Of a stretch of 51,433 bases of DNA, positions 4,299-48,900 are shown one piece after another (position 1 is the stretch's first letter; every line of letters starts with the position of its first letter). Source of the DNA: a virus (taxonomy: Duplodnaviria > Caudoviricetes); the IMG/VR virus record IMGVR_UViG_3300024275_000004, positions 1 through 51,433 of that record. One strand, 5' to 3'. The notes under the pieces were generated by a model, which was not told where the DNA came from, made no database searches, and saw nothing but the letters and a program-made list of their open reading frames with translations. The translations under genes were made by a program, and so were the position numbers.

Positions 4299-4463
4299 AT
4301 GAGCGATACTTTTAAAATAGACCCCCGCACTTTTGAAGAAGAACAGGAACGCCATCGTGGTGTTCATGACCAGGAGCGTAAGAAGCGTAAGCTAGAGAAT
4401 AAGCGTTTCCGAGAACAACGAGATAATGAGGCTTGCTATGGAATTACGGAACGAGACGATTAA
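4299..4463 (+). CDS. hypothetical protein (54 aa)
   Basis: Hand-read ORF MSDTFKIDPRTFEEEQ... fills the gap between helicase and sigma factor. Confidence 0.5.
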   Translation: MSDTFKIDPRTFEEEQERHRGVHDQERKKRKLENKRFREQRDNEACYGITERDD

Positions 4464-4932
4464 TCAGCATTACGTAGAGAATTACAATCGTCTATGTAAG
4501 TACATGAGGTTCCGCTCAGGAACCGAATGGAATGCTGAAGATGTTGTTCAAGAGGCTTATCACAATGCTCTGAAGTATTTTGAGAATTACGATCAGACAC
4601 AGCCCTTTCAAGCTTGGTTTAATCGTATCCTCATTAATGCCCTTGTAGACTTTAAGCGAAGGGAGAAGGGCAATATGGCTGAGGAGTTTGAGGAAGAACA
4701 TGCAGAAGGATTTGCTTGCACTCATTACACTGACCATGTTCTAAATCAGATTTACGAGCGTATCGAAGCTAAGGAAGAGGAGCATCATCGAGACATTCTA
4801 TTCCTACATTTCAAGCATGGATATTCTCCAAAAGATATTGCAGCTATTACAGGAAATTCCCCTCACGCCTCTCATAAAGTTATTCAGAGGTTTCGTAACG
4901 AATTGAAGGAACTATACGGCACAAAGCTATGA
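4438..4932 (+). CDS. phage-encoded ECF-type sigma70-family factor
   Basis: Region 2 AEDVVQEAY..ALKY, FQAWFNRILINALVDFKRR; region 4 HTH GYSPKDIAAITG; GAGG before ATG 4438 (alternative start 4426). Confidence 0.88.
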   Translation: MELRNETINQHYVENYNRLCKYMRFRSGTEWNAEDVVQEAYHNALKYFENYDQTQPFQAWFNRILINALVDFKRREKGNMAEEFEEEHAEGFACTHYTDHVLNQIYERIEAKEEEHHRDILFLHFKHGYSPKDIAAITGNSPHASHKVIQRFRNELKELYGTKL

Positions 4933-7077: not shown

Positions 7078-7241
7078 AGTTCATTGATATCGAGAAGTGT
7101 AAAGAATATCTCCGCTCTTGTCATTATATGCGGGATGCTATGCTAGAGGAAGAGTTGCAACTTTCCAATCGTATTGCAGACATTACAAATAAAATTAATG
7201 AAGCTCAGATGTGGCTTCGTTCTAACAAGGAAGATAAATAA
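7074..7241 (+). CDS. hypothetical protein (55 aa)
   Basis: ATGA overlap; GAGGA SD; ends just before the SSB start. Confidence 0.55.
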   Translation: MKFIDIEKCKEYLRSCHYMRDAMLEEELQLSNRIADITNKINEAQMWLRSNKEDK

Positions 7242-7242
7242 T

Positions 7243-7953
7243 ATGGCACTAATTGCAAAGGCCCAACCGAAACAAGAGAATCGTCAATTCGTAAAGCAGC
7301 CTAGCCTTGAGGCAGGTACGTATCCTGGTCGTCTGGTACAGATTATTGATCTTGGCTTGCAGCCTCAGCGTCCTTTCAAGGGAGAAGAAAAGAAGCCTGC
7401 TCAAGAGGTGATGTGGACTTACGAGCTGGTAGATGCCTTCATGCTGGACGAACAAGGAAAGGAAATTGAAGATAAGCCTCGCTGGATTAGCGAGTCTCTG
7501 CCTTTCTATTCACTAGATAACGATAAGGCGAAGAGCACACAGCGTATTAAGGCGCTTGATCCTGACAATCAGTTTGATGGGGATGTGTCGCAAATGATTG
7601 GCACTCCTGTCAATGTCACCATCGTCCTTAAGCCTAATGCTAAAGACCCTGAGCGTCCTTATGAGAACATTGCTGGTACTTCGTTTATGCGTCCTCGTGA
7701 TGCTGCTAAGTGCCCTGAACTGGTTAATCCTCCGAAGGTGTTCGATCTTAGTGCTCCTGATATGGATGTGTATGCGAAGCTTCCTAAGTGGATTCAGGAA
7801 AAGATTGAAAGTAATTTGAATTTCAAGGGGAGCAAGCTTGAGAAGCTGCTTGGTGGAAAGCCTGAAGAAAAGGAACGAGCTGAGGAGAATCCGGTGGTGG
7901 CTGATAAGGGTGAAGATACGCCGCCTTGGGAAGACAGCGACGCCCCCTATTAA
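7243..7953 (+). CDS. putative single-stranded DNA-binding / replication protein
   Basis: Acidic-aromatic C-terminal tail (EDTPPWEDSDAPY), GTYPGRLVQIIDLG motif, position between polymerase and exonuclease; start at MALIAK. Confidence 0.65.
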   Translation: MALIAKAQPKQENRQFVKQPSLEAGTYPGRLVQIIDLGLQPQRPFKGEEKKPAQEVMWTYELVDAFMLDEQGKEIEDKPRWISESLPFYSLDNDKAKSTQRIKALDPDNQFDGDVSQMIGTPVNVTIVLKPNAKDPERPYENIAGTSFMRPRDAAKCPELVNPPKVFDLSAPDMDVYAKLPKWIQEKIESNLNFKGSKLEKLLGGKPEEKERAEENPVVADKGEDTPPWEDSDAPY

Positions 7954-8756
7954 TGCGTCAACCTTTGATTGATGCCGATGTGATTTCGTACGAATGCGGT
8001 TTTGCGGCTGAAACTGCATGGAAGGGAAGGGAGGGTGAAGGCCCTCCTCCTTGGGAGCTAGTAGAAGAAATGTTGGGGATGCGTATTGCAAATATCTGTG
8101 CGTTAGTTGACGCTACTGAACCTCCCATCATGTTCCTGACAGGCAAAACTAATTTCCGAAATAACATCGCTAGACGTAAGCCGTATAAAGAACGAGCAGG
8201 CAATAAGCCTTGGCATTACTATAACATCCGTGCCGTATTGAAGGGGCTATATGAATCAAGAGAAGTTGAGGGACTTGAAGCAGATGATCTTATGGCTATC
8301 GAGCAGACAAAGCGAGGAGATGAAACAATCATCTGCACCCGCGATAAAGACCTATTTCAAGTGCCTGGATGGATTTTCAGTTGGGAGTTGGGAAATCAAC
8401 CCCAACGAGGCCCTATGGTTATCGAAGGTTATGGAGAGATCAGGCTATCCGACAAGCGTGACAAAATCATCGGTCACGGTAGTTCTTTCTTTCTCTCGCA
8501 GTGCCTTACAGGGGATGTGGTAGACAGTGTACCTGGCCTGCCTAAATGCGGGCCTGTAGCAGCTCTTAAAATCCTTGAAGCTACCTCTGCCTATGCTGAG
8601 GGCTTAGAGGCTGTCAGAGAGGCTTATAGAGGCTCCTATGGGGGTGTTCTAGAGGCAGATGAGGCTTTAACAGAACAGGCTCGTCTCCTGCATATGGTGA
8701 GAGAGCTAGACGAACAAAACAATCCAGTGATGTGGAGTATTGAAAATGTTTATTGA
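7953..8756 (+). CDS. 5'-3' exonuclease (T7 gp6 / FEN-like)
   Basis: LIDAD, NFR, YK..R, LEADD, RDKDL.QVPG, GD.VDSVPG. Confidence 0.9.
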   Translation: MRQPLIDADVISYECGFAAETAWKGREGEGPPPWELVEEMLGMRIANICALVDATEPPIMFLTGKTNFRNNIARRKPYKERAGNKPWHYYNIRAVLKGLYESREVEGLEADDLMAIEQTKRGDETIICTRDKDLFQVPGWIFSWELGNQPQRGPMVIEGYGEIRLSDKRDKIIGHGSSFFLSQCLTGDVVDSVPGLPKCGPVAALKILEATSAYAEGLEAVREAYRGSYGGVLEADEALTEQARLLHMVRELDEQNNPVMWSIENVY

Positions 8757-16076: not shown

Positions 16077-16347
16077 CTTTCTTCCTCCCTCCTGTTCCCC
16101 TGTTACGAGCACGGTTCTTAGCTGCAGATTGGACACGAAGGTTAGAAGTACCATTGTGGGCTGTATTCATGTCCTTATGGTCTACGTCCTTACCGTCTCC
16201 CTTCTTCACCTTCCCTGCAGCTTCCATCTTACGTCTAGCCGCATTACGTTGTGCCCTACGCTTTACTTGTTCGGGCTGGCTATTGTATGCCCTCTGTCGC
16301 TTGCTATCTGCTGTAGCATTAGCCTTTAGTTGACCTTTCTTAGCCAC
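16069..16347 (-). CDS. small basic HNH-like protein
   Basis: GDGKDVDHKD...SNLRV...NRARN. Confidence 0.75.
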   Translation of the reverse strand: MAKKGQLKANATADSKRQRAYNSQPEQVKRRAQRNAARRKMEAAGKVKKGDGKDVDHKDMNTAHNGTSNLRVQSAAKNRARNRGTGGRKKGG

Positions 16348-16933
16348 CTAGAATCCTCTTTAAATATGGAATAGTTTCACTCTTCTTAGGAAGAAACTCT
16401 TTCCAGTTCTCCCCTCCCTTCGTGATAGCTCTCTTCACGCTCCCGGCTCCAGCGTTATACGCTGCAACAGCCTTCTCATAATCCCCATCAAACTCTTTTA
16501 ACATAGCACGAAGATAGTCCCTACCGAATCGTAAATACTCTTCCTTGCTCTTATTCTGAATAGGCGTAACACCATATCCAGGATTAGCTCCAGTCTTGGG
16601 CATCACTTGGGTAATCCCTTCAGCGCCAGCAGCAGATGTTGTCAAGTTTCCTTTAGCATCTGTATGTTTACCACCACTCTCTGTTCCTACAAGCTTATTG
16701 AGCACTTGCTCAAAGGAGAAGCTGGGTTTCTGTGCCTGAATAGGGGTAGGAGCTTCTACAGGCCTCTTGGCTGCATAATTCTGTTCCCAAGGCATCAACC
16801 CCTGTACTGCAGCTTTAATTGGCTCTGTGACCGTTTTAACAGCGTCTAGGGCCTGTTTCATAATGGGATTTAAATCCATCTCCCAAGGGAGAGGCCCTTG
16901 AGCCTCTGCTGCTGGTTTAGCTTCATCTGCCAT
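16340..16933 (-). CDS. lytic transglycosylase (SLT), probably virion-associated
   Basis: TESGG, GAEGITQVMPKT, AVAAYNAGAG; real start likely MADEAK at 16933. Confidence 0.88.
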   Translation of the reverse strand: MADEAKPAAEAQGPLPWEMDLNPIMKQALDAVKTVTEPIKAAVQGLMPWEQNYAAKRPVEAPTPIQAQKPSFSFEQVLNKLVGTESGGKHTDAKGNLTTSAAGAEGITQVMPKTGANPGYGVTPIQNKSKEEYLRFGRDYLRAMLKEFDGDYEKAVAAYNAGAGSVKRAITKGGENWKEFLPKKSETIPYLKRILGG

Positions 16934-16934
16934 A

Positions 16935-18728
16935 TCAATTAACCTTTTCGTAGCTAGTTGGGGAAGTCCAAGGGCCAACGCCATCCCACTTATAACCATT
17001 AACCACTTGACCCGGCTTAAGCTGCTTAGGGTCTGGATAAACCTTCGGCAGGAAGAAGTGTTTGTTATCTTCCCAGTATTTTTGATAATCAGTAGTTCCT
17101 TCCATATGCGCGCCAATACGAATCAACTGATTCAGAGCATCCTGACTTTGCTTGAATGTCTGAGCCAATTGGGCATTGTTACGCATATCAACAGTGGGGA
17201 GACCTAAGCGGCCTGTTGTAGGGCCTTTAGCTTGGAACACCACACCAGTTCCGTTAAACGAGATGTCAACAGCATTCAAGAGCTTAACGCTGTCTGTACC
17301 AGGAGCAATAGCATCCAGACGATTGTTAATAGCCCCAACAACTGTAGGTTCGTAGTTCATCTGGAAAGCTCTCTTAGCTGCCTGAGCAAGCTGAGGATCT
17401 AGCGTACCGTTTTTCACCATCGTAGCGAATTGAGGGCCAGCTACAAACTTAGCCACTTCCTTCAAGCTGTTAGCATCTGCTTGTCCAGTTTGAGCGAGGA
17501 AGTTAGTTTGACGGAGGATGTTATTAACTCCTGTCGATGCCTCGGTGAGAGCCTTCTCTTTATCCTTCACCTTGCCAGTGTTAATGGCATCAATACCTGT
17601 ATTCAGCATCTTGTAATTAGCAGCTTCAATCTGACCATTACCAACCACTTGCGGAGTCATAATACCGCTACCAGGCAGGTTATTCGTAAGCCAAGTGAAA
17701 GACTGAACAGCTTCTGCACTGTTCTGCAGAGGAATACTGTTAGGCAGCAAGCCAGAGGTAGCAGTAAGAGCCAGCAGCTTAGGGCTATTCTGCATAGCCA
17801 TAACCTGAGCCTGCGTGATTAACAGCTTCTTCTGATCTTCAAGCTGTTGCAGATTGCTCTTAGGATCAAACAGCTTCTGATTAACCTCGTTAAGCTGGTT
17901 CAAGATGCCTCGGTATGCACTAGCTAGTTCAGGATTCCCCTGAGAAGCTGCTGTAACTACAGCTTGCATTTGAGCGTGTTGAGCAGCATTCTGAGCTTGT
18001 GCCGATTCAGGAGTAATCTTCCCACTTCGTACACTGTCAGCCAAACTAGTACCTAGAGACGACAAGGCATTGATATTGGTAGATGCCAGATCGGTAATAA
18101 GCCTAAAGCCAAGTTCCTTCTGCTCTCGTGCAGCAATCTCAGCATTGTATGTACCTTGAGCACGCTTCTCGCCATTCTGCTTAATCTGATCTTCCCAAGC
18201 CTGCTTAGTGCGGATAGCACTCTGAGAGGCATTCAGGATTTGATTGGTAGTGTTCTCATCAGCACCAGGAGGGATAATGTAGCCTTGCTGCTGTGCTGTA
18301 GAGACAAGCTGCTCTCTACGCTTCGATTCAGTTTCAAGCTGTTTCTCAATCTCCCCCTTCTCCGTAATTCCCCTCAAGCTGTCATTAGCCGATTTGAAAT
18401 CCGTAGAATACTGAGGGTAGCCAGCTAGGTACTTATTACCAATAGCTCGCTGTCTAGCTGCAGCTTCTGAAGGCTGCATTTGTCCAGTAGCTACGGCATC
18501 GTTAATGACTGTCTGCTCTCTTACGAAAGCACCTACGACCCCCTGCTTTGCTTTCTCTGCTTCATCTTTACGATTCTGTACCAACCCCTTAGCGAAGATA
18601 TCAGCTACATCTTCAACAATCTTAGGGAGAGCGAAGCCGACTACTTGTTCCTGAACAGGTTGTACTGGTTGGCTTCCAGCCCCACTGGGGCCAGAAAGCT
18701 GTGTTGCATTAGTTGAGTAGTCAGCCAC
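16935..18728 (-). CDS. internal virion (ejection) protein
   Basis: 597-aa helical Ala/Gln-rich ORF at the ejectosome position. Confidence 0.7.
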   Translation of the reverse strand: MADYSTNATQLSGPSGAGSQPVQPVQEQVVGFALPKIVEDVADIFAKGLVQNRKDEAEKAKQGVVGAFVREQTVINDAVATGQMQPSEAAARQRAIGNKYLAGYPQYSTDFKSANDSLRGITEKGEIEKQLETESKRREQLVSTAQQQGYIIPPGADENTTNQILNASQSAIRTKQAWEDQIKQNGEKRAQGTYNAEIAAREQKELGFRLITDLASTNINALSSLGTSLADSVRSGKITPESAQAQNAAQHAQMQAVVTAASQGNPELASAYRGILNQLNEVNQKLFDPKSNLQQLEDQKKLLITQAQVMAMQNSPKLLALTATSGLLPNSIPLQNSAEAVQSFTWLTNNLPGSGIMTPQVVGNGQIEAANYKMLNTGIDAINTGKVKDKEKALTEASTGVNNILRQTNFLAQTGQADANSLKEVAKFVAGPQFATMVKNGTLDPQLAQAAKRAFQMNYEPTVVGAINNRLDAIAPGTDSVKLLNAVDISFNGTGVVFQAKGPTTGRLGLPTVDMRNNAQLAQTFKQSQDALNQLIRIGAHMEGTTDYQKYWEDNKHFFLPKVYPDPKQLKPGQVVNGYKWDGVGPWTSPTSYEKVN

Positions 18729-30738: not shown

Positions 30739-30814
30739 TGGTGCTAGATGTAGGAATCAAACCTACGACCTTCACATTACAAGTGTGTTGCTCTATCTGC
30801 TGAGCTAATCTAGC
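30739..30814 (-). tRNA. tRNA-Thr(TGT)
   Basis: 76-nt cloverleaf GCTAGAT...ATCTAGC-A-CCA; anticodon loop CTTGTAA; T-loop TTTGATT. Confidence 0.9.
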
Positions 30815-36023: not shown

Positions 36024-37550
36024 TTAAACGACCTTTCCGCAATACACATCAGCCCACGAGAACGTGCAATTCGTACCGGCTTTTGTGTACGCTTCCAAAG
36101 TAACGACGAGGGATGGCCCAGCACTACTTGTCGTGTTCGCCAGGTCAAAACCAGCAGGCAAAGCGACAGGCGGCGTTTCGAGAATGAAATTCGACGGATA
36201 CGGCCACGAACCGGGGAACGTTCCGCCTTCGTCCTGCGCAGAAATCAGAATCAACTGCGAAGTGCCGGCAGTGTTCTTGAAATTGGCGTTAAGGCGCGGG
36301 ACAAAGGCGCCAGCAGTCAGCGCCGAGACATTGCAGTCCGCGAACATTTGCATGATGTCGCCGGGGACAATCGGTTCGCAGCATTGCAACGTCGCCGTGC
36401 CATTCGGGAACGTGACTCCGATATCAGTCAGCCACGTTGTCGGGTCTGCATTCGAGGCAAGCTGACCAGTGCCGCCCGGAATCGCGCGATAATGCGCCCC
36501 CGTCTGCGGGACATAAAAGCGGGTGGTATCCAGAACAGCCGCAGACGGCACAGCCAACCGGAAATTCACCGTATAACTCAACTGGATTCTGTCGTTGTCG
36601 GCGCCGCCTGTTGTGATATTGACCTGCCACCGCGTGTCCTGCCGGTAGTCCAGCGATGCAACTTTACTGAGTGCAGCAACCAAGGCGCTGCCAGTCCGTG
36701 CGGCAAACCAGCCGTTAGGGCCATTGCCAGTCACGCCGGTACCGACCCCGAATCCATTCGCCCCGGAAGCATTGTTTCCCATCAACCTGCCGTTACTGAC
36801 AAGATTGGTGCCTTGCTGATTCGTGCGGGACTCCACGATTTTCGGGATAAATCCGTCCAGCCTGTCTTTGGCGACCCATCCACAATTCAACCCCAGCAAG
36901 GGGCCGGGGTGAACGTTATCAATCGTGCCTCCTGCAATGGAAGTGCCGTCCGAATTTGTCGCTGCGCCCGCCCAATCAACCACATAAACCGGCGCATTCG
37001 TTTTCTCTTGCTGGCGGATAAATTCGTTGATCTTTTCCAGCGCGACGCGTGTAAGCGTTCCGCCTGTCCCGACCGTGCCGCTGTTCGGCGGAATCGTGAA
37101 CAGAATGGGTCGAATGCCGGCGCCGAGAAGCGTAGAAATAATCGTCGTTAAGTTGGCAATGGTTGTTGCATACGGGACAGATGAAACAATGTCATTCACG
37201 CCGCCGAATAGCGTGCAATAGTCCGGACTATATGCCAGCACGTCAGTCTGAATGCGAGCCAACATCTGCGCCGTGGTATCGCCCGATACCCCGGCATTAT
37301 TCACGACATGAAAACGCCGCTTCAAGAAGGCGTTCATCCACGCCACAAACGACCCGGCTGACGAATAGACGTTGGGCGTCGAGGACGCGTTGGCATATTG
37401 CCGCGTGATCGAGTCGCCAAGGATCACCAGCGTATTCTTTGCGGTGCCTTTCGGTCGGGCCGGGAGCACGGCATTTCCAAGCCTCAATCCGGAGGCCGCG
37501 CCATTTTGAGTGCGAACGGTGGCTACGCCGGGAATATCAAGAATACCCAT
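36024..37550 (-). CDS. SGNH/GDSL esterase-domain protein, probable tail-associated deacylase
   Basis: Blocks GDSIT, NAGVSGDTT, GGVND, DNVHP; GC-rich relative to flanks. Confidence 0.85.
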   Translation of the reverse strand: MGILDIPGVATVRTQNGAASGLRLGNAVLPARPKGTAKNTLVILGDSITRQYANASSTPNVYSSAGSFVAWMNAFLKRRFHVVNNAGVSGDTTAQMLARIQTDVLAYSPDYCTLFGGVNDIVSSVPYATTIANLTTIISTLLGAGIRPILFTIPPNSGTVGTGGTLTRVALEKINEFIRQQEKTNAPVYVVDWAGAATNSDGTSIAGGTIDNVHPGPLLGLNCGWVAKDRLDGFIPKIVESRTNQQGTNLVSNGRLMGNNASGANGFGVGTGVTGNGPNGWFAARTGSALVAALSKVASLDYRQDTRWQVNITTGGADNDRIQLSYTVNFRLAVPSAAVLDTTRFYVPQTGAHYRAIPGGTGQLASNADPTTWLTDIGVTFPNGTATLQCCEPIVPGDIMQMFADCNVSALTAGAFVPRLNANFKNTAGTSQLILISAQDEGGTFPGSWPYPSNFILETPPVALPAGFDLANTTSSAGPSLVVTLEAYTKAGTNCTFSWADVYCGKVV

Positions 37551-39800: not shown

Positions 39801-40985
39801 TTAACGAACGCGACGAGCACGAATAGATCCATTAACAGTACAGGTGCCGCCTGTAAATGCTGCATCAGCAACGCAGTAAACCGTAGAGGTACTTGTGATG
39901 CTAACTCGTACCGTAGGACTAGCAAGAGTAATAGATCCTAATCCATTATTCCACGATACGCCTGTTACCATATTAGAACCACCAAGACCTACTAATGTTG
40001 CAGAAGTAAGTCCGACCGATGCTGTATAGAAAGTACAAGTAGCGCCAGCACCTAGCGAGTAGTTAACAGTACCTTCAATATCCCAATCTCCTGGAGTCAA
40101 GGAGACACTTGTAGCATTAGCAGCGACAAGATTAGAAATAGAAGTGCCAGTAGTAGTATTAGTAATGAATTCACCTACACTGCCTGCATTAGCATTGTTA
40201 TTAGTTGTTGTCCCAACAATACCTGCTGTTTGCGAAGGAGTGATTGTACCTGTGGCTGTAATCGTAGTGGCGGCTACAGTGTTGGGTGTTGTCGCGCCCA
40301 CTGTACCGTTGTGCGCCCCTGTCGTAGCTCCAGTAACATTACCCGTAAGAGGGCCAGTAAATGCTGACGAGGAAAAAGCAACAGCAGCATCCCCATTAAG
40401 CTTAGCCTTCTCAGTGTCTAGCTCTTGAAGAGCAGCCTGTACTGTTGTAGAGCCGATGTTACCTACGGGAGTTACCGTAATTGAATCAGCAGGGAATGTA
40501 CCTCCTGGCGATAGAGTGGTATCCCAGTACAATGCTCCGATGAGAAGAGGATTACCATCATTATCCACTGTAGGCGGAGAAGCCTTAGCCCCAAGATACC
40601 GATCATCGAATGAATCGAATGAAGCCGCACTAGCTGAAGCACTAGCCGCACTAGAAGTAGCACTGGCTTGCGATAGAATGGCAGAAGCCTCTGAATCAGC
40701 AGCAGCAGCTGTAGCATCAGCTACAAGCCCACCAGCAGCCAGATCAATAGCTTCCTGGATTGTATTCCCATTAAGGAAGATTTCATTATCGACATGTAAG
40801 TCATTAACACCGAATACATTCTTACCATTAGCATCTAGATCATTATCTAGAGCATTAGGTTCCCCTACGGGGTTATCCCGATAGAGTACCTTCTGATTAA
40901 GTTCATCCTCAATTAATTGAAAGTTATTATTAATCTGAGAGAAACCATAATCAGCAATTGAGGTATTTAGCTCAATCTTAGACAT
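39801..40985 (-). CDS. tail fibre protein with virion-anchor domain
   Basis: INNNFQLIEDELNQKVLYRDNP, FDDRYLGAKAS.PTVDNDGNPL..GALYW. Confidence 0.8.
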   Translation of the reverse strand: MSKIELNTSIADYGFSQINNNFQLIEDELNQKVLYRDNPVGEPNALDNDLDANGKNVFGVNDLHVDNEIFLNGNTIQEAIDLAAGGLVADATAAAADSEASAILSQASATSSAASASASAASFDSFDDRYLGAKASPPTVDNDGNPLLIGALYWDTTLSPGGTFPADSITVTPVGNIGSTTVQAALQELDTEKAKLNGDAAVAFSSSAFTGPLTGNVTGATTGAHNGTVGATTPNTVAATTITATGTITPSQTAGIVGTTTNNNANAGSVGEFITNTTTGTSISNLVAANATSVSLTPGDWDIEGTVNYSLGAGATCTFYTASVGLTSATLVGLGGSNMVTGVSWNNGLGSITLASPTVRVSITSTSTVYCVADAAFTGGTCTVNGSIRARRVR

Positions 40986-41521
40986 TTGTTCCTTTTCTTG
41001 CTTTTGGGACTAAAGACTGTTCCGCAAGGAATCAGTCTAGTTCCTTCGTTAATGGCCACATACGTTCGAAGAACGAATGCGTAGCGTCATAAGGCAGCTA
41101 AGGCTGCTCTTATGTATTACTCCTTAGACGCCTTCGGCCTTTACATGAAAATATTCTGCAGAGATATTCTCCTGGCCTTAATTGTCAGAATTTCTGTGAG
41201 AAATTTGTGAGGTTCAATGCACCTAGAAGCACTAGGTGTGTCCCCCTTGTACCCCCTCCCAAGCATCACACATGCTTCGCATAATGTACATTATGTAAAA
41301 TCGACCCCTAGTACGTGCCTTACCAGGCACAATTCTGTTTGTCAATAGGGATTAGTCTCTATTGTGAGGTGTGGGCTAAATGTGCTCCGTATCCCTATTT
41401 CATAGCATGACGTAGCCTGGTAATTGCCCACAATCCCTTATAAATCAAGGGCTTAGGCGCATTCTGCGCCCCTATAAAAGAACGCCTTCGGCCTAATGCT
41501 ACGCATGGTGCACCCTACTAT

Positions 41522-41554
41522 GTATATACGCGCGCAATTACCATTTTTGGACAT
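41522..41554 (-). promoter_or_regulatory. putative phage-sigma promoter ATGTCCA-N18-GTATATAC at the head of the late arm
   Basis: Variant of the repeated motif with the same spacer; points into the structural operon. Confidence 0.72.
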
Positions 41555-41625
41555 GCTGTGTCTATTATCGTTTACCCTGGTATGTTACGAGGTTGATACA
41601 ATATGCAGTGCTAGCGGTTCACCTA

Positions 41626-41655
41626 TTGACATCTCGTTACTGTTACAGATATGAT
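41626..41655 (+). promoter_or_regulatory. early sigma70 promoter P1 (TTGACA-N18-TATGAT)
   Basis: Perfect -35 and near-consensus -10. Confidence 0.65.
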
Positions 41656-41701
41656 TCATCCCGTTGTCAGCAAGTATGTTTCAAGGTTGTAACGAAACAG
41701 G

Positions 41702-41730
41702 TTGACAAGTATGAGTTGATAGTTCATAGT
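41702..41730 (+). promoter_or_regulatory. early sigma70 promoter P2 (TTGACA-N17-CATAGT)
   Basis: Perfect -35 with 17-bp spacer. Confidence 0.7.
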
Positions 41731-41840
41731 TCATACCAACGCAGCATACGAAACACCTGAGAGTCAAAGCAGACGTTAAATGCTAGGTGTAGTAGGTGTT
41801 AGCTAGTACATAAGGCCTAGGCCGGAAGCACTAGACAGCG

Positions 41841-41869
41841 TTGACAAGTAGCAAGAAGTATGAGATAGT
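41841..41869 (+). promoter_or_regulatory. early sigma70 promoter P3 (TTGACA-N17-GATAGT, extended TG)
   Basis: Perfect -35, TGn extension; shares GTTGACAAGTA with P2. Confidence 0.7.
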
Positions 41870-41885
41870 GCGGTTCATGCAGTAG

Positions 41886-42021
41886 TAGTTAGTGCATGTA
41901 AAGGTAACTCCCTAGTAAGGGTAAAGCTGGATCTAAGTAACGCCAGCATACAGCCGCGACGGAGAAGGCAGATCACCGGGTTAATAGCTTGGGTGGGCCG
42001 AACAAACTGAAGCACTAACTA
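41886..42021 (+). ncRNA. candidate multibranch structured RNA
   Basis: A 10-bp perfect closing stem TAGTTAGTGC/GCACTAACTA encloses four small hairpins. Confidence 0.55.
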
Positions 42022-42063
42022 GCAGTAAGCGAAAGGACATGCAAAGCATGGCTAGGTAGCGTT

Positions 42064-42076
42064 CGCCCTTTAACAA
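42064..42076 (+). promoter_or_regulatory. boxA-like antitermination element
   Basis: CGCCCTTTAACAA versus the rrn/lambdoid consensus GCTCTTTAACA. Confidence 0.6.
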
Positions 42077-42385
42077 TGTGATGATGTGAGTACACAGTAG
42101 AATGTGTACATGCCTGAGCTAGCCTGAAACTAGCGCAGCCAGTGTCGTGTAAGAGAATCCATACCGGGGCCGTGGTGCAAAGGTAGGGAAGATACTTGCC
42201 TCCTGGACGCGTGAAGACAGAGTGTGAAGGAGAATGTTCTATCCCTAAGCAATCGCCTAATAAGCCTGAGCAATCGGATAGAACACTACATGTACTGTCA
42301 ATGGTGTACAGAAAGCTATGTGTTTCTGCGCAAGTAGAAATACTATCATGCCTTGCATGTGGCTCTAATTACAGCATCGTCCACC

Positions 42386-42397
42386 CTTCTTTAACAA
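42386..42397 (+). promoter_or_regulatory. boxA-like antitermination element
   Basis: CTTCTTTAACAA, 7 nt before the rod RNA. Confidence 0.6.
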
Positions 42398-42404
42398 TTC
42401 GAAA

Positions 42405-42563
42405 GCTACACCTATCCTCGTTTGTATGCGGCAATGTCTGCGTATGTTCAGGCCCACTAGGTTTATCTCCCTCGCGTAGACCACGGCTCTACGCTGCACA
42501 AGATAGACCAATAGAACCTTGAACAAACAAACATGTTGCCAGTAACGAGGGAAACGGTATAGC
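42405..42563 (+). ncRNA. candidate ~160-nt rod-shaped ncRNA
   Basis: Six nested helices read by hand, several with G-U pairs. Confidence 0.65.
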
Positions 42564-42617
42564 ATGGGACATAGTGACAGTGTGTCCTGTAGTGTATCGT
42601 TAACAAGGAGGTGTGTG

Positions 42618-42848
42618 ATGATCACCAAGAAAGATGCAATTGCGATTGGTTCTGCCATCGTTGCGGGATTGAAGCGTGAAGAGGCTGATCCGCGTATGTC
42701 CGGTACTGACAACAAGGCTCGTTACCATGCACGAGGTGCAGTTATTCATGCAATGGATAACTTGTGGTATGACGTTATTCCGCAAGCTACTCGTGCATCA
42801 TTCAATTACAGCAAGGATGAATTCTTTGCTGCATGTAAGTGGGAGTGA
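42618..42848 (+). CDS. first early protein (76 aa), hypothetical
   Basis: Strong AAGGAGGT SD before ATG 42618. Confidence 0.8.
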   Translation: MITKKDAIAIGSAIVAGLKREEADPRMSGTDNKARYHARGAVIHAMDNLWYDVIPQATRASFNYSKDEFFAACKWE

Positions 42849-42851
42849 GAT

Positions 42852-42968
42852 ATGAGAGAAACTAAAGTTAAGCGTATGGTGCGTATGTGTGGTGTACGTA
42901 TGACTGCACTGTATCTCAAGCGTAGGGGCTACACAGCAGAACAAGCTGTAACCCTCATGTTCCGTTAA
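42852..42968 (+). CDS. hypothetical early protein (38 aa)
   Basis: GGAG SD; MRETKVKRMVRMCGVR... Confidence 0.6.
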   Translation: MRETKVKRMVRMCGVRMTALYLKRRGYTAEQAVTLMFR

Positions 42969-43015
42969 TACATAGAACAAAGGGCGCTGGTTAGCGCCCT
43001 TGATTGTGTGTATTA
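42966..43015 (+). other. putative RNase III processing hairpin
   Basis: TAATACATA...AAGGGCGCT-GGTT-AGCGCCCTT...TGTGTATTA with an internal loop. Confidence 0.55.
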
Positions 43016-43082
43016 GATGATGTGCCGAAAGATATAGCAGACTAATGCTATCATCGTCACAGACAGGTGGCCTAGCGCAAGG

Positions 43083-43595
43083 CTAACGGCCCAAGTCTTT
43101 AAGCATCGCATCATAATCGTCAAGGTCTTTCTTGATGAGATTCCGCTTTTGCTCAGCACCGTCTAGCGTAGCCTTAATGGCGTCTATCTGTTCTGCCTGC
43201 GCCCAAAAGCTAGCTTGCGCCTGCTTGCTAGTTTTGAAGCTGTTCTCAATGTCAGGCTTGTATAGCTCATTGCCGAATACATCAAAGAAGACAGGACGAA
43301 ACACCCTGCCGGCCTCTTGCTCAGGGAATCCGGCAGGAATGGATTCAACGAGGCCAAAGATAAGACCACTGTCTAGGACAGACGTGGAAATGATTTTGCT
43401 GTGAAAAGCCTTGATTGTCTTATCCTCCACGTAATGTGAACGCCCCTCCAAGTTACGTTGAGCTTGTGAGAGGGGATAGCCTGAGCGTGAACGATAGAGT
43501 TCAACCCCGTTCTGTTGAAGGACATGTGCGAGGGTGTCGATAGTAACAATCTTGTTGGGTGCTTTATTCATCATAGCTCTCTGTTGGCATGGCAA
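43083..43595 (-). CDS. hypothetical protein encoded against the early transcription direction
   Basis: 170-aa ORF with globular-protein composition and no convincing + strand gene; start uncertain. Confidence 0.6.
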   Translation of the reverse strand: MPCQQRAMMNKAPNKIVTIDTLAHVLQQNGVELYRSRSGYPLSQAQRNLEGRSHYVEDKTIKAFHSKIISTSVLDSGLIFGLVESIPAGFPEQEAGRVFRPVFFDVFGNELYKPDIENSFKTSKQAQASFWAQAEQIDAIKATLDGAEQKRNLIKKDLDDYDAMLKDLGR

Positions 43596-44289: not shown

Positions 44290-44374
44290 GCGAGTATGGC
44301 GGAATTGGTAGACGCAAGAGACTTAAAATCTCTCGCCTATGGGTGTAAGGGTTCGACTCCCTTTACTCGCACCA
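44290..44374 (+). tRNA. tRNA-Leu(TAA)
   Basis: 85-nt cloverleaf with variable arm, GGTTCGAC T-arm and encoded CCA. Confidence 0.93.
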
Positions 44375-48823: not shown

Positions 48824-48900
48824 CCCTCTGTAGCTCAGCGGATCAGAGCACAAACCTTCTAAGTTTGGGGTCGCATGTTCGAATCATGCCAGAGGGGCCA
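48824..48900 (+). tRNA. tRNA-Arg(TCT)
   Basis: 77-nt cloverleaf CCCTCTG...CAGAGGG-G-CCA; anticodon loop CTTCTAA. Confidence 0.93.

What the first reader, a model, noticed from the sequence alone, without database searches (positions are those of the whole stretch)
41737..42600. ~900-nt non-coding early leader made of consecutive structured RNA modules with two boxA-like sites
Seen: no credible CDS lies between the tandem sigma70 promoters and the first SD-led gene at 42618, yet pairing is dense. Module A (41737-41843) is closed by CAACGC/GCGTTG with inner ACACCT/AGGTGT and CTAGT/ACTAG. Module B is 41886-42021. A hairpin series covers 42090-42360 (GTACACA/TGTGTAC, GCTAG/CTAGC, TGTTCTATCC/GGATAGAACA, a GCAA-capped stem). 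A rod covers 42405-42563. CTTTAACAA boxA-like sites at 42064 and 42386 each precede a module. Established: boxA with Nus factors shields long untranslated RNA (rRNA operons, some CRISPR arrays) from Rho. Inference: the first product of infection is a polycistronic ncRNA cassette for host takeover, anti-defence or put-like antitermination. This is my best candidate for an undescribed system in the window.
Basis: partly seen in the sequence, partly recalled or inferred. Interest (0 to 1): 0.85.

Follow-up and report, generated by a model that had tools for sequence, protein, structure and literature searches.

The report
Untranslated phage early leader with boxA
A soil podovirus begins its early operon with about 750 bases of non-coding RNA that carries ribosomal-operon-style anti-termination signals and one short motif shared with unrelated Ralstonia phages, but most of it is not the chain of folded RNA modules that was first proposed.

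Summary
The window is a complete 51.4-kb Zobellviridae podovirus from a soil metagenome. Bases 40986-42617 form a gene-free divergent junction. No ORF there has phage-like codon usage, and three strong sigma70-type promoters cluster at 41626-41869, so the non-coding claim holds.

Dense structure is mostly not supported. Modules A and B and 42090-42230 fold no better than shuffles. Only 42230-42349 (z -3.5) and the rod at 42416-42550 (z -4.5) stand out.

The boxA reading is supported by comparison. In the six family genomes I examined, boxA-like sites are about 18-fold enriched in the sense strand of the early leaders (12 observed, 0.66 expected).

A new observation is a 32-nt block at 41756-41787. 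It is identical except at one position in the early leaders of eight Ralstonia T7-like phages and one uncultured phage. It is the only DNA shared with the four of those genomes compared whole.

My best reading is a long 5' leader protected from Rho by rrn-type Nus/boxA antitermination. It ends in processing or stabilising hairpins and carries a host-specific cis element of unknown function. A cassette of discrete ncRNAs is unsupported. I found no RNA data, so no transcript has been shown.

The parts
41626..41655 (+). early promoter P1, TTGACA-18-TATGAT (11 of 12)
   Evidence: prediction only
41702..41730 (+). early promoter P2, TTGACA-17-CATAGT (10 of 12). Its upstream flank CGAAACAGGTTGACAAG matches RSJ5 at 16 of 17 positions.
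41756..41787 (+). 32-nt conserved block CCTGAGAGTCAAAGC[A/C]GACGTTAAATGCTAGG. It starts about +20 from the predicted P2 start. The flanking pair 41755/41788 covaries (A-U in 2 sequences, C-G in 6).
41841..41869 (+). early promoter P3, TTGACA-17-GATAGT, with TG before the -10.
42038..42050 (+). small hairpin CATGCAAAGCATG, 14 nt upstream of boxA-like site 1 (boxB-like position)
   Evidence: The pattern occurs only twice in the genome (0.08 expected). The fold itself is weak (z -0.1).
42065..42076 (+). boxA-like site 1, GCCCTTTAACAA followed by TGTG. It has one transition against GYTCTTTAANA and keeps G2, C5 and U6.
   Evidence: PMC5725501 and PMC3177189 (passages)
42235..42285 (+). 10-bp hairpin TGTTCTATCC/GGATAGAACA. 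Its 31-nt loop holds two direct 12-mers, CCTAAGCAATCG and CCTGAGCAATCG.
42320..42343 (+). 10-bp hairpin capped by GCAA. Together with the previous part it accounts for z -3.5 at 42230-42349.
42347..42359 (+). small hairpin CATGCCTTGCATG, 26 nt upstream of boxA-like site 2
42386..42397 (+). boxA-like site 2, CTTCTTTAACAA. It lacks G2. It lies at the start of the only stretch of the leader where C exceeds G (42341-42500).
42416..42550 (+). 135-nt interrupted rod (about 47 pairs), z -4.5. It is equally stable on the - strand.
42553..42601 (+). 49-nt hairpin (9 + 10 pairs) ending 3 nt before the SD
42605..42848 (+). SD AAGGAGG and first early gene (76 aa, no family; one 41%-identical relative in a 62-kb viral contig)
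42852..42968 (+). second early gene, a 38-aa basic peptide (codon score 0.25)
42980..43001 (.). 9-bp GC-rich hairpin with weak T tracts, between this operon and the convergent gene 43083-43595

Best explanation
Bases 41660-42617 are the long untranslated 5' leader of the host-RNA-polymerase (sigma70) early operon of a virulent Zobellviridae podovirus. They are not a set of separate RNA genes. Three tandem promoters fire rightwards.

The nascent RNA carries rrn-type antitermination signals: a small hairpin followed by boxA, strong at 42065 and weaker at 42386. I infer that these recruit host NusB-NusE (S10) and the other Nus factors. That would keep RNA polymerase resistant to Rho while it crosses about 750 nt that no ribosome covers.

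The leader ends in two long hairpins, the rod 42416-42550 and 42553-42601, directly before the first ribosome-binding site. I infer that they are an RNase III-type processing site or a 5' stabiliser. This resembles the R0.3 site before T7 gene 0.3 (recalled).

A 32-nt block at about +20 of promoter P2 is a separate cis element. It is kept nearly identical in unrelated phages of Ralstonia, so it most likely contacts a host component.

Shown: the region is non-coding, the promoter consensus matches cluster here, the motifs are enriched and conserved, and there are two local structures. Inferred: transcription itself, Nus binding, Rho protection, processing, and the host.
For: 1. The region is non-coding, and 3 of the genome's 8 best sigma70 sites lie within 250 bp in the right orientation.

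2. The layout is a family feature. The junctions of PQ867852.1, PQ867841.1, PQ867842.1, O4 and ICP2 are about 1.3-1.8 kb with few or no annotated genes. They carry tandem TTGACA promoters and roughly 440-790 nt of untranslated RNA before the next or first gene.

3. boxA. GYTCTTTAANA with 1 mismatch or fewer gives 12 sense hits in 5473 nt of these six leaders: window 2, PQ867852 1, PQ867841 1, PQ867842 4, O4 2, ICP2 2. Elsewhere in the sequence held there are 38 hits in 316,491 nt. That gives 0.66 expected and Poisson P about 7e-12. Reversed and complement-only controls give 0.

4. Site 1 shares the extension AACAATGTG with O4 and ICP2 sites. The rrn leader on the megaplasmid of Ralstonia pseudosolanacearum GMI1000 reads hairpin, then GTTCTTTAACAA, then AAGTGTGGGCGC.

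5. CATGCNNNGCATG occurs only twice in 51 kb. Both copies lie 14-26 nt before the two boxA-like 12-mers. The expectation is 0.08, and 0 of 100 shuffles reach 2.

6. G exceeds C along the leader except at 42341-42500, where site 2 lies.

7. A significantly stable fold covers the last 143-146 nt before gene 1. In the 4 relatives folded, z is -2.26, -4.70, -2.91 and -4.52. In the window it is -2.84 and -2.34.

8. The phage encodes its own sigma factor at 4426-4932 (Pfam Sigma70_r2, E 2.6e-11). That fits a short host-sigma70 early phase that starts here.
Against: - No transcript, start site or processing site has been observed.
- Both window sites differ from the consensus by one base, and site 2 lacks G2. 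Transversions at G2 abolish function in lambda boxA (PMC3177189, passages).
- Genome-wide the motif is not enriched: 13 hits against 8.6 expected.
- In the window the sites lie about 190 and 510 nt downstream of P3, whereas in some relatives they lie about 20-50 nt into the leader.
- The CATGC hairpins are only 5 bp and are not more stable than shuffles.
- I drew the leader intervals after reading the sequences. PQ867852 and PQ867841 are close relatives. I looked at only 5 of the 126 phage records with a portal match, and I chose them myself.
- The rod folds equally well on both strands, so a DNA-level role is not excluded.
- rrn-type complexes are, from recall, poor against intrinsic terminators.
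- Why the family keeps 0.44-0.8 kb of fast-evolving untranslated RNA remains unexplained.
Confidence: 0.55

Rival explanations
1. The leader is a cassette of discrete, structured, trans-acting ncRNAs (for takeover, anti-defence or as a sponge). They would be released from the early transcript and would be the real first product of infection.
For: - The leader (about 740 nt from P3) is twice as long as the coding part of the operon it heads (76 + 38 codons), and a hairpin follows at 42980.
- Two local structures exceed chance.
- One hairpin loop displays two direct 12-mers, which looks like a binding platform.
- The family keeps long leaders although their sequence drifts.
Against: - Modules A and B and 42090-42230 fold like shuffles.
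- There is no Rfam family.
- No terminator-like site was scanned on the + strand between the modules.
- There is no similarity to relatives' leaders beyond boxA, so no covariation test was possible.
- GGA is not enriched (9 observed, 13.9 expected), which argues against a CsrA-type sponge.
- A promoter interrupts the proposed series.
Confidence: 0.12
2. The region works mainly as DNA, for example as a transcription-activated replication origin, a packaging or terminus region, or protein-binding palindromes. The leader RNA would be incidental.
For: - Cumulative GC skew has its minimum at about 40-41 kb.
- The rod is equally stable on both strands (z -4.5 and -4.9), and the whole region folds better on the - strand.
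- The left part of the junction, 40990-41470, has negative z on both strands. It also holds a repeated 13-mer ACGCCTTCGGCCT (twice) and a C-rich tract shared with five relatives.
- The linear O4 record ends beside that tract.
Against: - The skew minimum also coincides with the switch of gene strand, so it does not discriminate.
- The DNA-like features lie mostly left of the promoters, outside the finding.
- The boxA motif is strand-specific: 12 sense hits in the leaders and 0 for the complement-only control.
- No AT-rich unwinding tract or iteron array was seen in 41737-42617.
Confidence: 0.13
3. This is an ordinary long 5' UTR with little function. On this view the boxA-like words act differently or not at all, for example as Nus-dependent repression as at suhB, or as part of promoter-proximal DNA. 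The hairpins would simply stabilise the mRNA.
For: - The sequence is not conserved outside short motifs.
- Average structure equals the coding background.
- In ICP2 and in the Ralstonia T7-like phages a boxA-like word lies directly upstream of a -35, not after a start site.
- The Ralstonia rrn promoter itself contains GTTCTTTAGAAT as its -10 region.
- boxA can repress as well as antiterminate (PMC5725501, abstract and passages).
Against: - The roughly 18-fold, strand-specific enrichment of boxA across six leaders.
- The paired duplication of hairpin and boxA in the window.
- The persistence of long leaders in all six genomes examined.
Confidence: 0.15

Closest known systems
rrn operon leader antiterminator (boxB hairpin, boxA, boxC; NusA/B/E/G, SuhB, S4)
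   Same: It shares the order hairpin then boxA, in an untranslated RNA downstream of strong tandem sigma70 promoters. The word CTTTAACAA is identical to the tail of the Ralstonia rrn boxA GTTCTTTAACAA. The presumed purpose is also the same: protection of untranslated RNA from Rho.
   Different: This is a virulent phage leader and not rRNA. Each window site is one base off the consensus. The sites lie about 190 and 510 nt from the nearest promoter. No clear boxC was tested. Nus binding is untested.
lambda nutL/nutR (boxA, then boxB, plus N protein)
   Same: It is a phage early leader that uses a boxA word after the early promoters.
   Different: The order is reversed, with the hairpin before boxA. 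No N-like protein was found among four proteins encoded next to the leader (Pfam). The boxA is of the full rrn type rather than the shortened lambda type (recalled). The phage is virulent.
boxA outside rRNA: the suhB 5' UTR and CRISPR array leaders
   Same: A consensus boxA in a non-rRNA transcript governs Rho access (PMC5725501, passages; CRISPR arrays recalled).
   Different: Those are host genes. Here the motif recurs in the early leaders of a phage family.
T7 early region (promoters A1-A3, untranslated leader, RNase III site R0.3 before gene 0.3); recalled, not tested here
   Same: It has three tandem host promoters about 75-140 bp apart, several hundred untranslated nucleotides, and a long hairpin just before the first gene. 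The 32-nt block is shared with T7-like Ralstonia phages at the same relative place.
   Different: The phage family is different and has no single-subunit RNA polymerase. The leader is longer. RNase III cleavage is not shown.
HK022 put RNA (cis-acting RNA that makes RNA polymerase termination-resistant); recalled
   Same: The 32-nt block lies just downstream of an early host promoter, always in the sense orientation. It has no accompanying shared early phage protein in the genomes compared, and it is followed by long untranslated RNA in the window, RSJ5 and G001.
   Different: put has two stem-loops of about 65-70 nt, whereas this is one short, mostly invariant stretch with 4-6 closing pairs. 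Downstream promoters bypass it. There is no sequence likeness.

Membership tests
Nus-factor boxA site (rrn type) | Match to the consensus GYTCTTTAANA with G2, C5 and U6 kept (numbering of UGCUCUUUAACA) | tested here: inconclusive
   Site 1, GCCCTTTAACA, has 1 transition and keeps G2, C5 and U6. Site 2, CTTCTTTAACA, lacks G2 (PMC5725501 and PMC3177189, passages). The rules come from E. coli and lambda, and the host here is unknown.
Nus-factor boxA site (rrn type) | Lies in the sense strand of an untranslated transcript downstream of a promoter | tested here: met
   Both sites lie downstream of three predicted promoters in a stretch with no coding ORF. Transcription is predicted and has not been observed.
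Nus-factor boxA site (rrn type) | Conserved at the equivalent place in relatives | tested here: met
   12 sense hits in the six leaders against 0.66 expected, and control motifs give 0. All 6 genomes examined have at least one.
Nus-factor boxA site (rrn type) | Binds NusB-NusE and confers Rho resistance | not testable with these tools
   This needs a binding assay and a reporter assay.
rrn-like boxB-boxA-boxC module | A stable hairpin just upstream of boxA and a GU-rich boxC downstream | tested here: inconclusive
   A hairpin is drawn within 45 nt upstream of the family sites, but z ranges from +0.36 to -3.3. The window hairpins are 5 bp (z -0.1 and -0.7). They are nevertheless a unique duplicated word. 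boxC was not tested; TGTGATGATGTGAG follows site 1.
HK022 put-like RNA (for the 32-nt block) | Two adjacent stem-loops of about 65-70 nt in all | tested here: not met
   Only one short stem is supported. One pair covaries (A-U in 2 and C-G in 6 of 8 distinct sequences). The flanks are not conserved.
HK022 put-like RNA (for the 32-nt block) | Directly downstream of an early host promoter, in the sense orientation, acting without a phage protein | tested here: inconclusive
   Position and orientation are met in all 10 loci, where a TTGACA lies 56-65 nt upstream (counted by eye). No early protein is shared between the window and four of these genomes. Action on RNA polymerase is untested, and downstream promoters bypass the block.
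Known RNA families (Rfam 15) | Score above a family's gathering threshold, or E of 1-10 or below | tested here: not met
   Nothing in 40900-43100 except one chance-level hit outside the leader (STnc50, E 8.1). Nothing but a tRNA in the leaders of RSB2, RSJ5, RpY2, RpT1 and O4.
RNase III processing hairpin (T7 R0.3-like) | About 20 bp or more of near-continuous helix just upstream of a gene, cleaved by RNase III | tested here: inconclusive
   A helix is present: the rod has about 47 pairs and the next hairpin has 19 pairs. Comparable hairpins occur in the 4 relatives folded. Cleavage cannot be tested here.

The most novel reading that the evidence does not exclude
The 32-nt block CCTGAGAGTCAAAGC[A/C]GACGTTAAATGCTAGG may be a new, horizontally exchanged, host-specific cis-acting RNA element. 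It lies at about +20 to +29 of an early sigma70 promoter. It has been captured independently by a 45%-GC Zobellviridae phage and by several genera of 61-63%-GC T7-like Ralstonia phages.

On this reading it binds a host elongation or termination component directly, such as RNA polymerase, a Nus factor or Rho, in the manner of put. Alternatively it decoys a host defence or RNA-binding protein. Either role would secure the first minutes of host-polymerase transcription.

Together with the family-wide rrn-type boxA modules, this would show that virulent podoviruses routinely hijack host processive antitermination without any N- or Q-like protein.
Probability: 0.2. Interest if true: 0.8.

Novelty: new variant of a known kind. 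Interest (0 to 1): 0.52.

Why it matters
Nus/boxA antitermination is known from rRNA operons, lambdoid nut sites, suhB and CRISPR arrays. I found no paper in the searchable library describing rrn-type hairpin-boxA modules as a recurrent feature of the early leaders of a family of virulent podoviruses (searches; in the passages I read, the ICP2 genome paper describes only how promoters were identified).

If this is real, it would explain how these phages carry host RNA polymerase across 0.44-0.8 kb of untranslated RNA without losing it to Rho. It would also give a simple sequence marker for early transcription units in uncultured phages.

The 32-nt block is a rarer kind of observation. It is near-identical in phages that share no other DNA, and it is absent from the reference genomes of 185,579 prokaryote species and from 72,556 plasmids. 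Such a pattern points to a specific host contact that could be identified. It also gives a weak host call (Ralstonia or a relative) for an uncultured soil phage.

Tried and rejected
- Rfam at gathering and E-value thresholds gave no family in the leader or in the leaders of RSB2, RSJ5, RpY2, RpT1 and O4.
- Searches for close relatives of the whole phage, meant to feed a covariation test, found none. I used four flanking proteins in IMG/VR. One distant homologue of gene 1 lies in a densely coding region without a leader. R-scape-type testing of the window's own modules was therefore impossible.
- blastn-short of the junction against the relatives' junctions found only 11-13-nt words, among them the boxA word.
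- The 108-aa ORF 42196-42522 is rejected as a gene. Its codon score is -0.20, and the translation is rich in Cys, Ser and Pro.
- No tRNA or tmRNA lies in the leader.
- A CsrA-type sponge is rejected because GGA is not enriched.
- Host derivation of the 32-nt block is rejected. The 22-nt core has 0 matches in genome contigs. It has 1 metagenome contig, which is the source of L004. It has 0 matches on the GMI1000 megaplasmid at 3 mismatches or fewer, and 0 in 72,556 plasmids.
- A covariance model found no second or diverged copy of the block in the loci searched. One weak hit at window 36879-36919 (E 0.18) is taken as chance.
- The tail-spike and tail-fibre proteins gave no host call.
- By eye, I rejected readings of the block as a hammerhead core, an IHF site, a -35/-10 pair, a mini-ORF (MLG...) or an antisense boxA. 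None was tested formally.
- The look-up of sequencing runs listed no RNA holder, only one soil-metagenome DNA run that may be the source.
- Kin of a virus record are not drawn by the genome search.
- Literature searches for the block found 0 papers with the 16-mer. The 12-mers matched only unrelated primers.
- Supplementary files of papers were not consulted. Figure S1 of the ICP2 paper (genome map with promoters) might bear on its junction.
Full report
WHAT THE WINDOW IS. The 51,433 bases are one complete IMG/VR virus record with terminal overlap. Portal DNA and protein place it in the Zobellviridae. The nearest records are oyster-metagenome phages PQ867852.1 (68%), PQ867841.1 (66%) and PQ867842.1 (64%). 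Next come the Pseudomonas phages O4 and PA11 (61%), CW02, CVT22 and ICP2. The only sequencing run listed as holding the stretch is a soil metagenome, on record as DNA. Genes run rightwards from about 42.6 kb, across the record end, to about 15 kb, and leftwards from 40,985 to about 15.6 kb. Bases 40986-42617 are therefore the divergent junction between the late cluster (tail fibre first) and the early genes.

CHECK OF THE OBSERVATION: NON-CODING AND PROMOTERS. The non-coding claim holds. All 23 ORFs of 25 aa or more in the junction, on both strands, score -0.37 to +0.06 per codon on a log-odds trained on 31 long genes of this phage. Five neighbouring small genes score 0.19-0.35. The first gene starts at 42618, behind AAGGAGG. 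The promoters are real outliers. Only 8 sites in the genome reach 10 of 12 matches with the conserved A and T of the -10. Three of them, all with a perfect TTGACA, lie at 41626, 41702 and 41841 on the + strand. It lies between 'module A' and 'module B', and its -35 overlaps the GCGTTG arm that was said to close module A.

CHECK OF THE OBSERVATION: STRUCTURE. The claim of dense pairing fails for most of the stretch. The whole 881 nt gives z -1.34 against dinucleotide shuffles on the + strand, and -3.39 on the - strand. Module A gives -1.55, module B -0.93 and 42090-42230 -1.31. In sliding 120-nt windows the first 12 windows of the leader average about -0.1. Coding-sense controls average -0.46, with 2 of 160 at or below -3. 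Two places stand out. One is 42230-42349 (z -3.5). It holds a 10-bp hairpin whose loop carries two direct 12-mers, followed by a 10-bp GCAA-capped hairpin. The other is the rod 42416-42550 (z -4.5, 0 of 200 shuffles as good), which is just as stable on the other strand. A further 49-nt hairpin (42553-42601) ends three bases before the SD.

RELATIVES. Four flanking proteins found no close relative of this phage in IMG/VR. No alignment of the window's own modules could therefore be made. The family layout is nevertheless shared. PQ867852.1, PQ867841.1, PQ867842.1, O4 and ICP2 all have a junction of about 1.3-1.8 kb with few or no annotated genes. Each has tandem TTGACA promoters and roughly 440-790 nt of untranslated RNA before a gene. 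In the 4 relatives I folded, the last 143-146 nt before the gene contain a long hairpin, with z -2.26, -4.70, -2.91 and -4.52. Sequence similarity between the window's junction and the three closest ones is limited to 11-13-nt words, one of which is the boxA word.

boxA. CTTTAACAA occurs three times in the genome, twice in the leader. I used the consensus GYTCTTTAANA, derived for gamma-proteobacteria (PMC5725501, passages), and allowed one mismatch. Genome-wide the motif is not enriched, with 13 hits against 8.6 expected. In the sense strand of the early leaders of the six family genomes, however, there are 12 hits in 5473 nt. All the other sequence I held has 38 hits in 316,491 nt, which gives 0.66 expected. 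The reversed motif and the complement-only motif each give 0 hits in the leaders. There are caveats. I drew the leader limits after reading the sequences, two of the genomes are close relatives, and the five relatives were chosen by me from 126 records.

Several relatives have perfect sites soon after a promoter, such as TTGCTCTTTAACAATCTGG in PQ867842.1. Site 1 of the window (GCCCTTTAACAATGTG) has one transition and keeps G2, C5 and U6. These are the positions at which transversions abolish lambda boxA function (PMC3177189, passages). It also shares the AACAATGTG extension with O4 and ICP2 sites. Site 2 (CTTCTTTAACAA) lacks G2 and is doubtful by those rules. It lies at the start of the only stretch of the leader where C exceeds G. 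Both sites are preceded by CATGCNNNGCATG, a word that occurs nowhere else in the genome (0.08 expected). These 5-bp hairpins are not stable beyond chance. The hairpin-then-boxA order matches rrn leaders. The rrn leader on the megaplasmid of Ralstonia pseudosolanacearum GMI1000 reads hairpin, GTTCTTTAACAA, then AAGTGTGGGCGC.

THE 32-NT BLOCK. blastn of the junction against 50,697 phage records found a single short match. Window 41756-41787 is 100% identical to RSJ5, and 41748-41793 is 91% identical to RSB2. A shorter query found 11 records, which are 8 phages: RSB2, RSJ5, phiITL-1, RpY2, RpT1, 10RS306A, 10RS305A and p2137. All are Ralstonia Autographiviridae. IMG/VR added one uncultured 41-kb phage, L004/G001. 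In all 10 loci the block lies in the sense orientation, 56-65 nt after the start of a TTGACA (counted by eye). That puts it at about +20 to +29 of the predicted transcript, usually with further promoters downstream. Thirty-one of the 32 positions are invariant. The pair that flanks the block covaries, with A-U in the window and RSB2 and C-G in six other distinct sequences. That is the only structural evidence.

I compared four of these genomes whole against the window. They have 61-63% G+C and the window has about 45%. The block is the only shared DNA. Of 390 window ORFs, 6 have protein matches (polymerase, primase-helicase and four other ORFs outside the early region), and none is an early gene. 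A covariance model finds one copy per genome and none in the Zobellviridae loci searched. The core is absent from the reference genomes of 185,579 prokaryote species, from PLSDB plasmids and from Rfam. The 16-mer appears in no searchable paper. Window promoters P2 and P3 also resemble RSJ5 promoters, for example CGAAACAGGTTGACAAG. I take this as weak evidence that the host is Ralstonia or a relative. Tail proteins gave no host call.

HOW IT MOST LIKELY WORKS. My preferred reading (about 0.55) is a long 5' leader of the sigma70 early operon, in which hairpin-boxA modules load host Nus factors so that RNA polymerase resists Rho across untranslated RNA. The terminal hairpins would be processing or stabilising sites before the first ribosome-binding site, as at T7 R0.3 (recalled). 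The phage has its own sigma factor, so this promoter cluster is probably the main entry point for the unmodified host enzyme. The 32-nt block is a separate element. Its invariance across unrelated phages, its fixed place after an early promoter and the lack of any shared early phage protein all point to contact with a host component. A put-like action on RNA polymerase is the most attractive guess. It fails the two-stem architecture test, and downstream promoters bypass it.

The rivals are a true ncRNA cassette (0.12), a mainly DNA-level role (0.13) and an ordinary UTR whose boxA words act otherwise (0.15). None of the RNA-level steps has been observed, and no RNA data set was listed (this is a blank, not evidence either way).

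VERDICT. What is new is comparative. rrn-type boxA modules recur in the early leaders of a family of virulent podoviruses, and a near-invariant 32-nt motif is shared with unrelated phages of one host genus.

Noticed in passing
window 41243-41262; also L034 about 90-115, L036 about 6035-6000 (- strand), L037 about 6355-6320 (- strand), L040 about 5000-4965 (- strand), L055 about 7838-7866: A C-rich tract (runs of CCCCC) lies left of the early promoters in all six Zobellviridae junctions I read. The linear O4 record ends beside it, so it may mark the genome terminus, a packaging site or an origin.
   Followed up: partly
window 40990-41470: The left half of the junction has negative folding z on both strands (-1.6 to -3.5). 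It contains the 13-mer ACGCCTTCGGCCT twice (41128, 41482). That word and TATATACGCGCG recur in the same order in PQ867842.1.
   Followed up: partly
window 4426-4932 (+): A phage-encoded sigma-70-family factor (Pfam Sigma70_r2, E 2.6e-11) lies just upstream of the DNA polymerase. A gene annotated 'RNA polymerase sigma factor' lies at the same place in PQ867852.1.
   Followed up: partly
window 42852-42968 (+): The second early gene encodes a 38-aa, strongly basic peptide (about 9 Arg/Lys) with no family. An arginine-rich RNA-binding peptide is conceivable but untested.
   Followed up: no
window 30742-30814 (-), 44290-44374 (+), 48824-48897 (+): There are three tRNA genes. The one at 44290 is tRNA-Leu(TAA).
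   Followed up: no
window 16340-17116 (-): An SLT transglycosylase-domain protein. Its C-terminal 115 aa are 50% identical to a protein of the uncultured T7-like phage G001, which is far closer than any other protein shared between the two.
   Followed up: no
L002 about 648-661; L005 about 7172-7186; L029-L033; L055 about 8297-8315: In the Ralstonia T7-like phages and in ICP2 a boxA-like word lies directly upstream of the -35 of the next tandem promoter (TCTTTAAGAATCTG in the former, GCTCTTTAAAAATGTGG in ICP2). It would therefore be read only in transcripts from a promoter further upstream.
   Followed up: partly
L005 about 7296-7310 and the same place in L029-L033: The leaders of the phiITL-1/RpY2/10RS306A group (Serkorvirus for two of them) contain CCTCCTTTCC, which resembles the anti-SD end of 16S rRNA, about 15 nt after the 32-nt block.
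   Followed up: no
L034 1-85 and about 290-370: PQ867852.1 has a long inverted repeat (about 85 nt) flanking roughly 200 nt at its junction. It could be real or an assembly artefact.
   Followed up: no
L037 about 5256-5090 (- strand); L034 755-1021: PQ867842.1 seems to have an unannotated 55-aa first early gene with an SD. The annotated '-' strand ORF1 of PQ867852.1 lies inside the early leader and is probably spurious.
   Followed up: no
window 41878-41890, 42018-42030; L003 about 790, 925, 1040: Transcripts from the early promoters of RSJ5 and other Ralstonia phages begin with AGCAGTA(A/G). Window P3 is followed by the related word TGCAGTAGTAG, and TAGCAGTAAGCG recurs at 42018.
   Followed up: no
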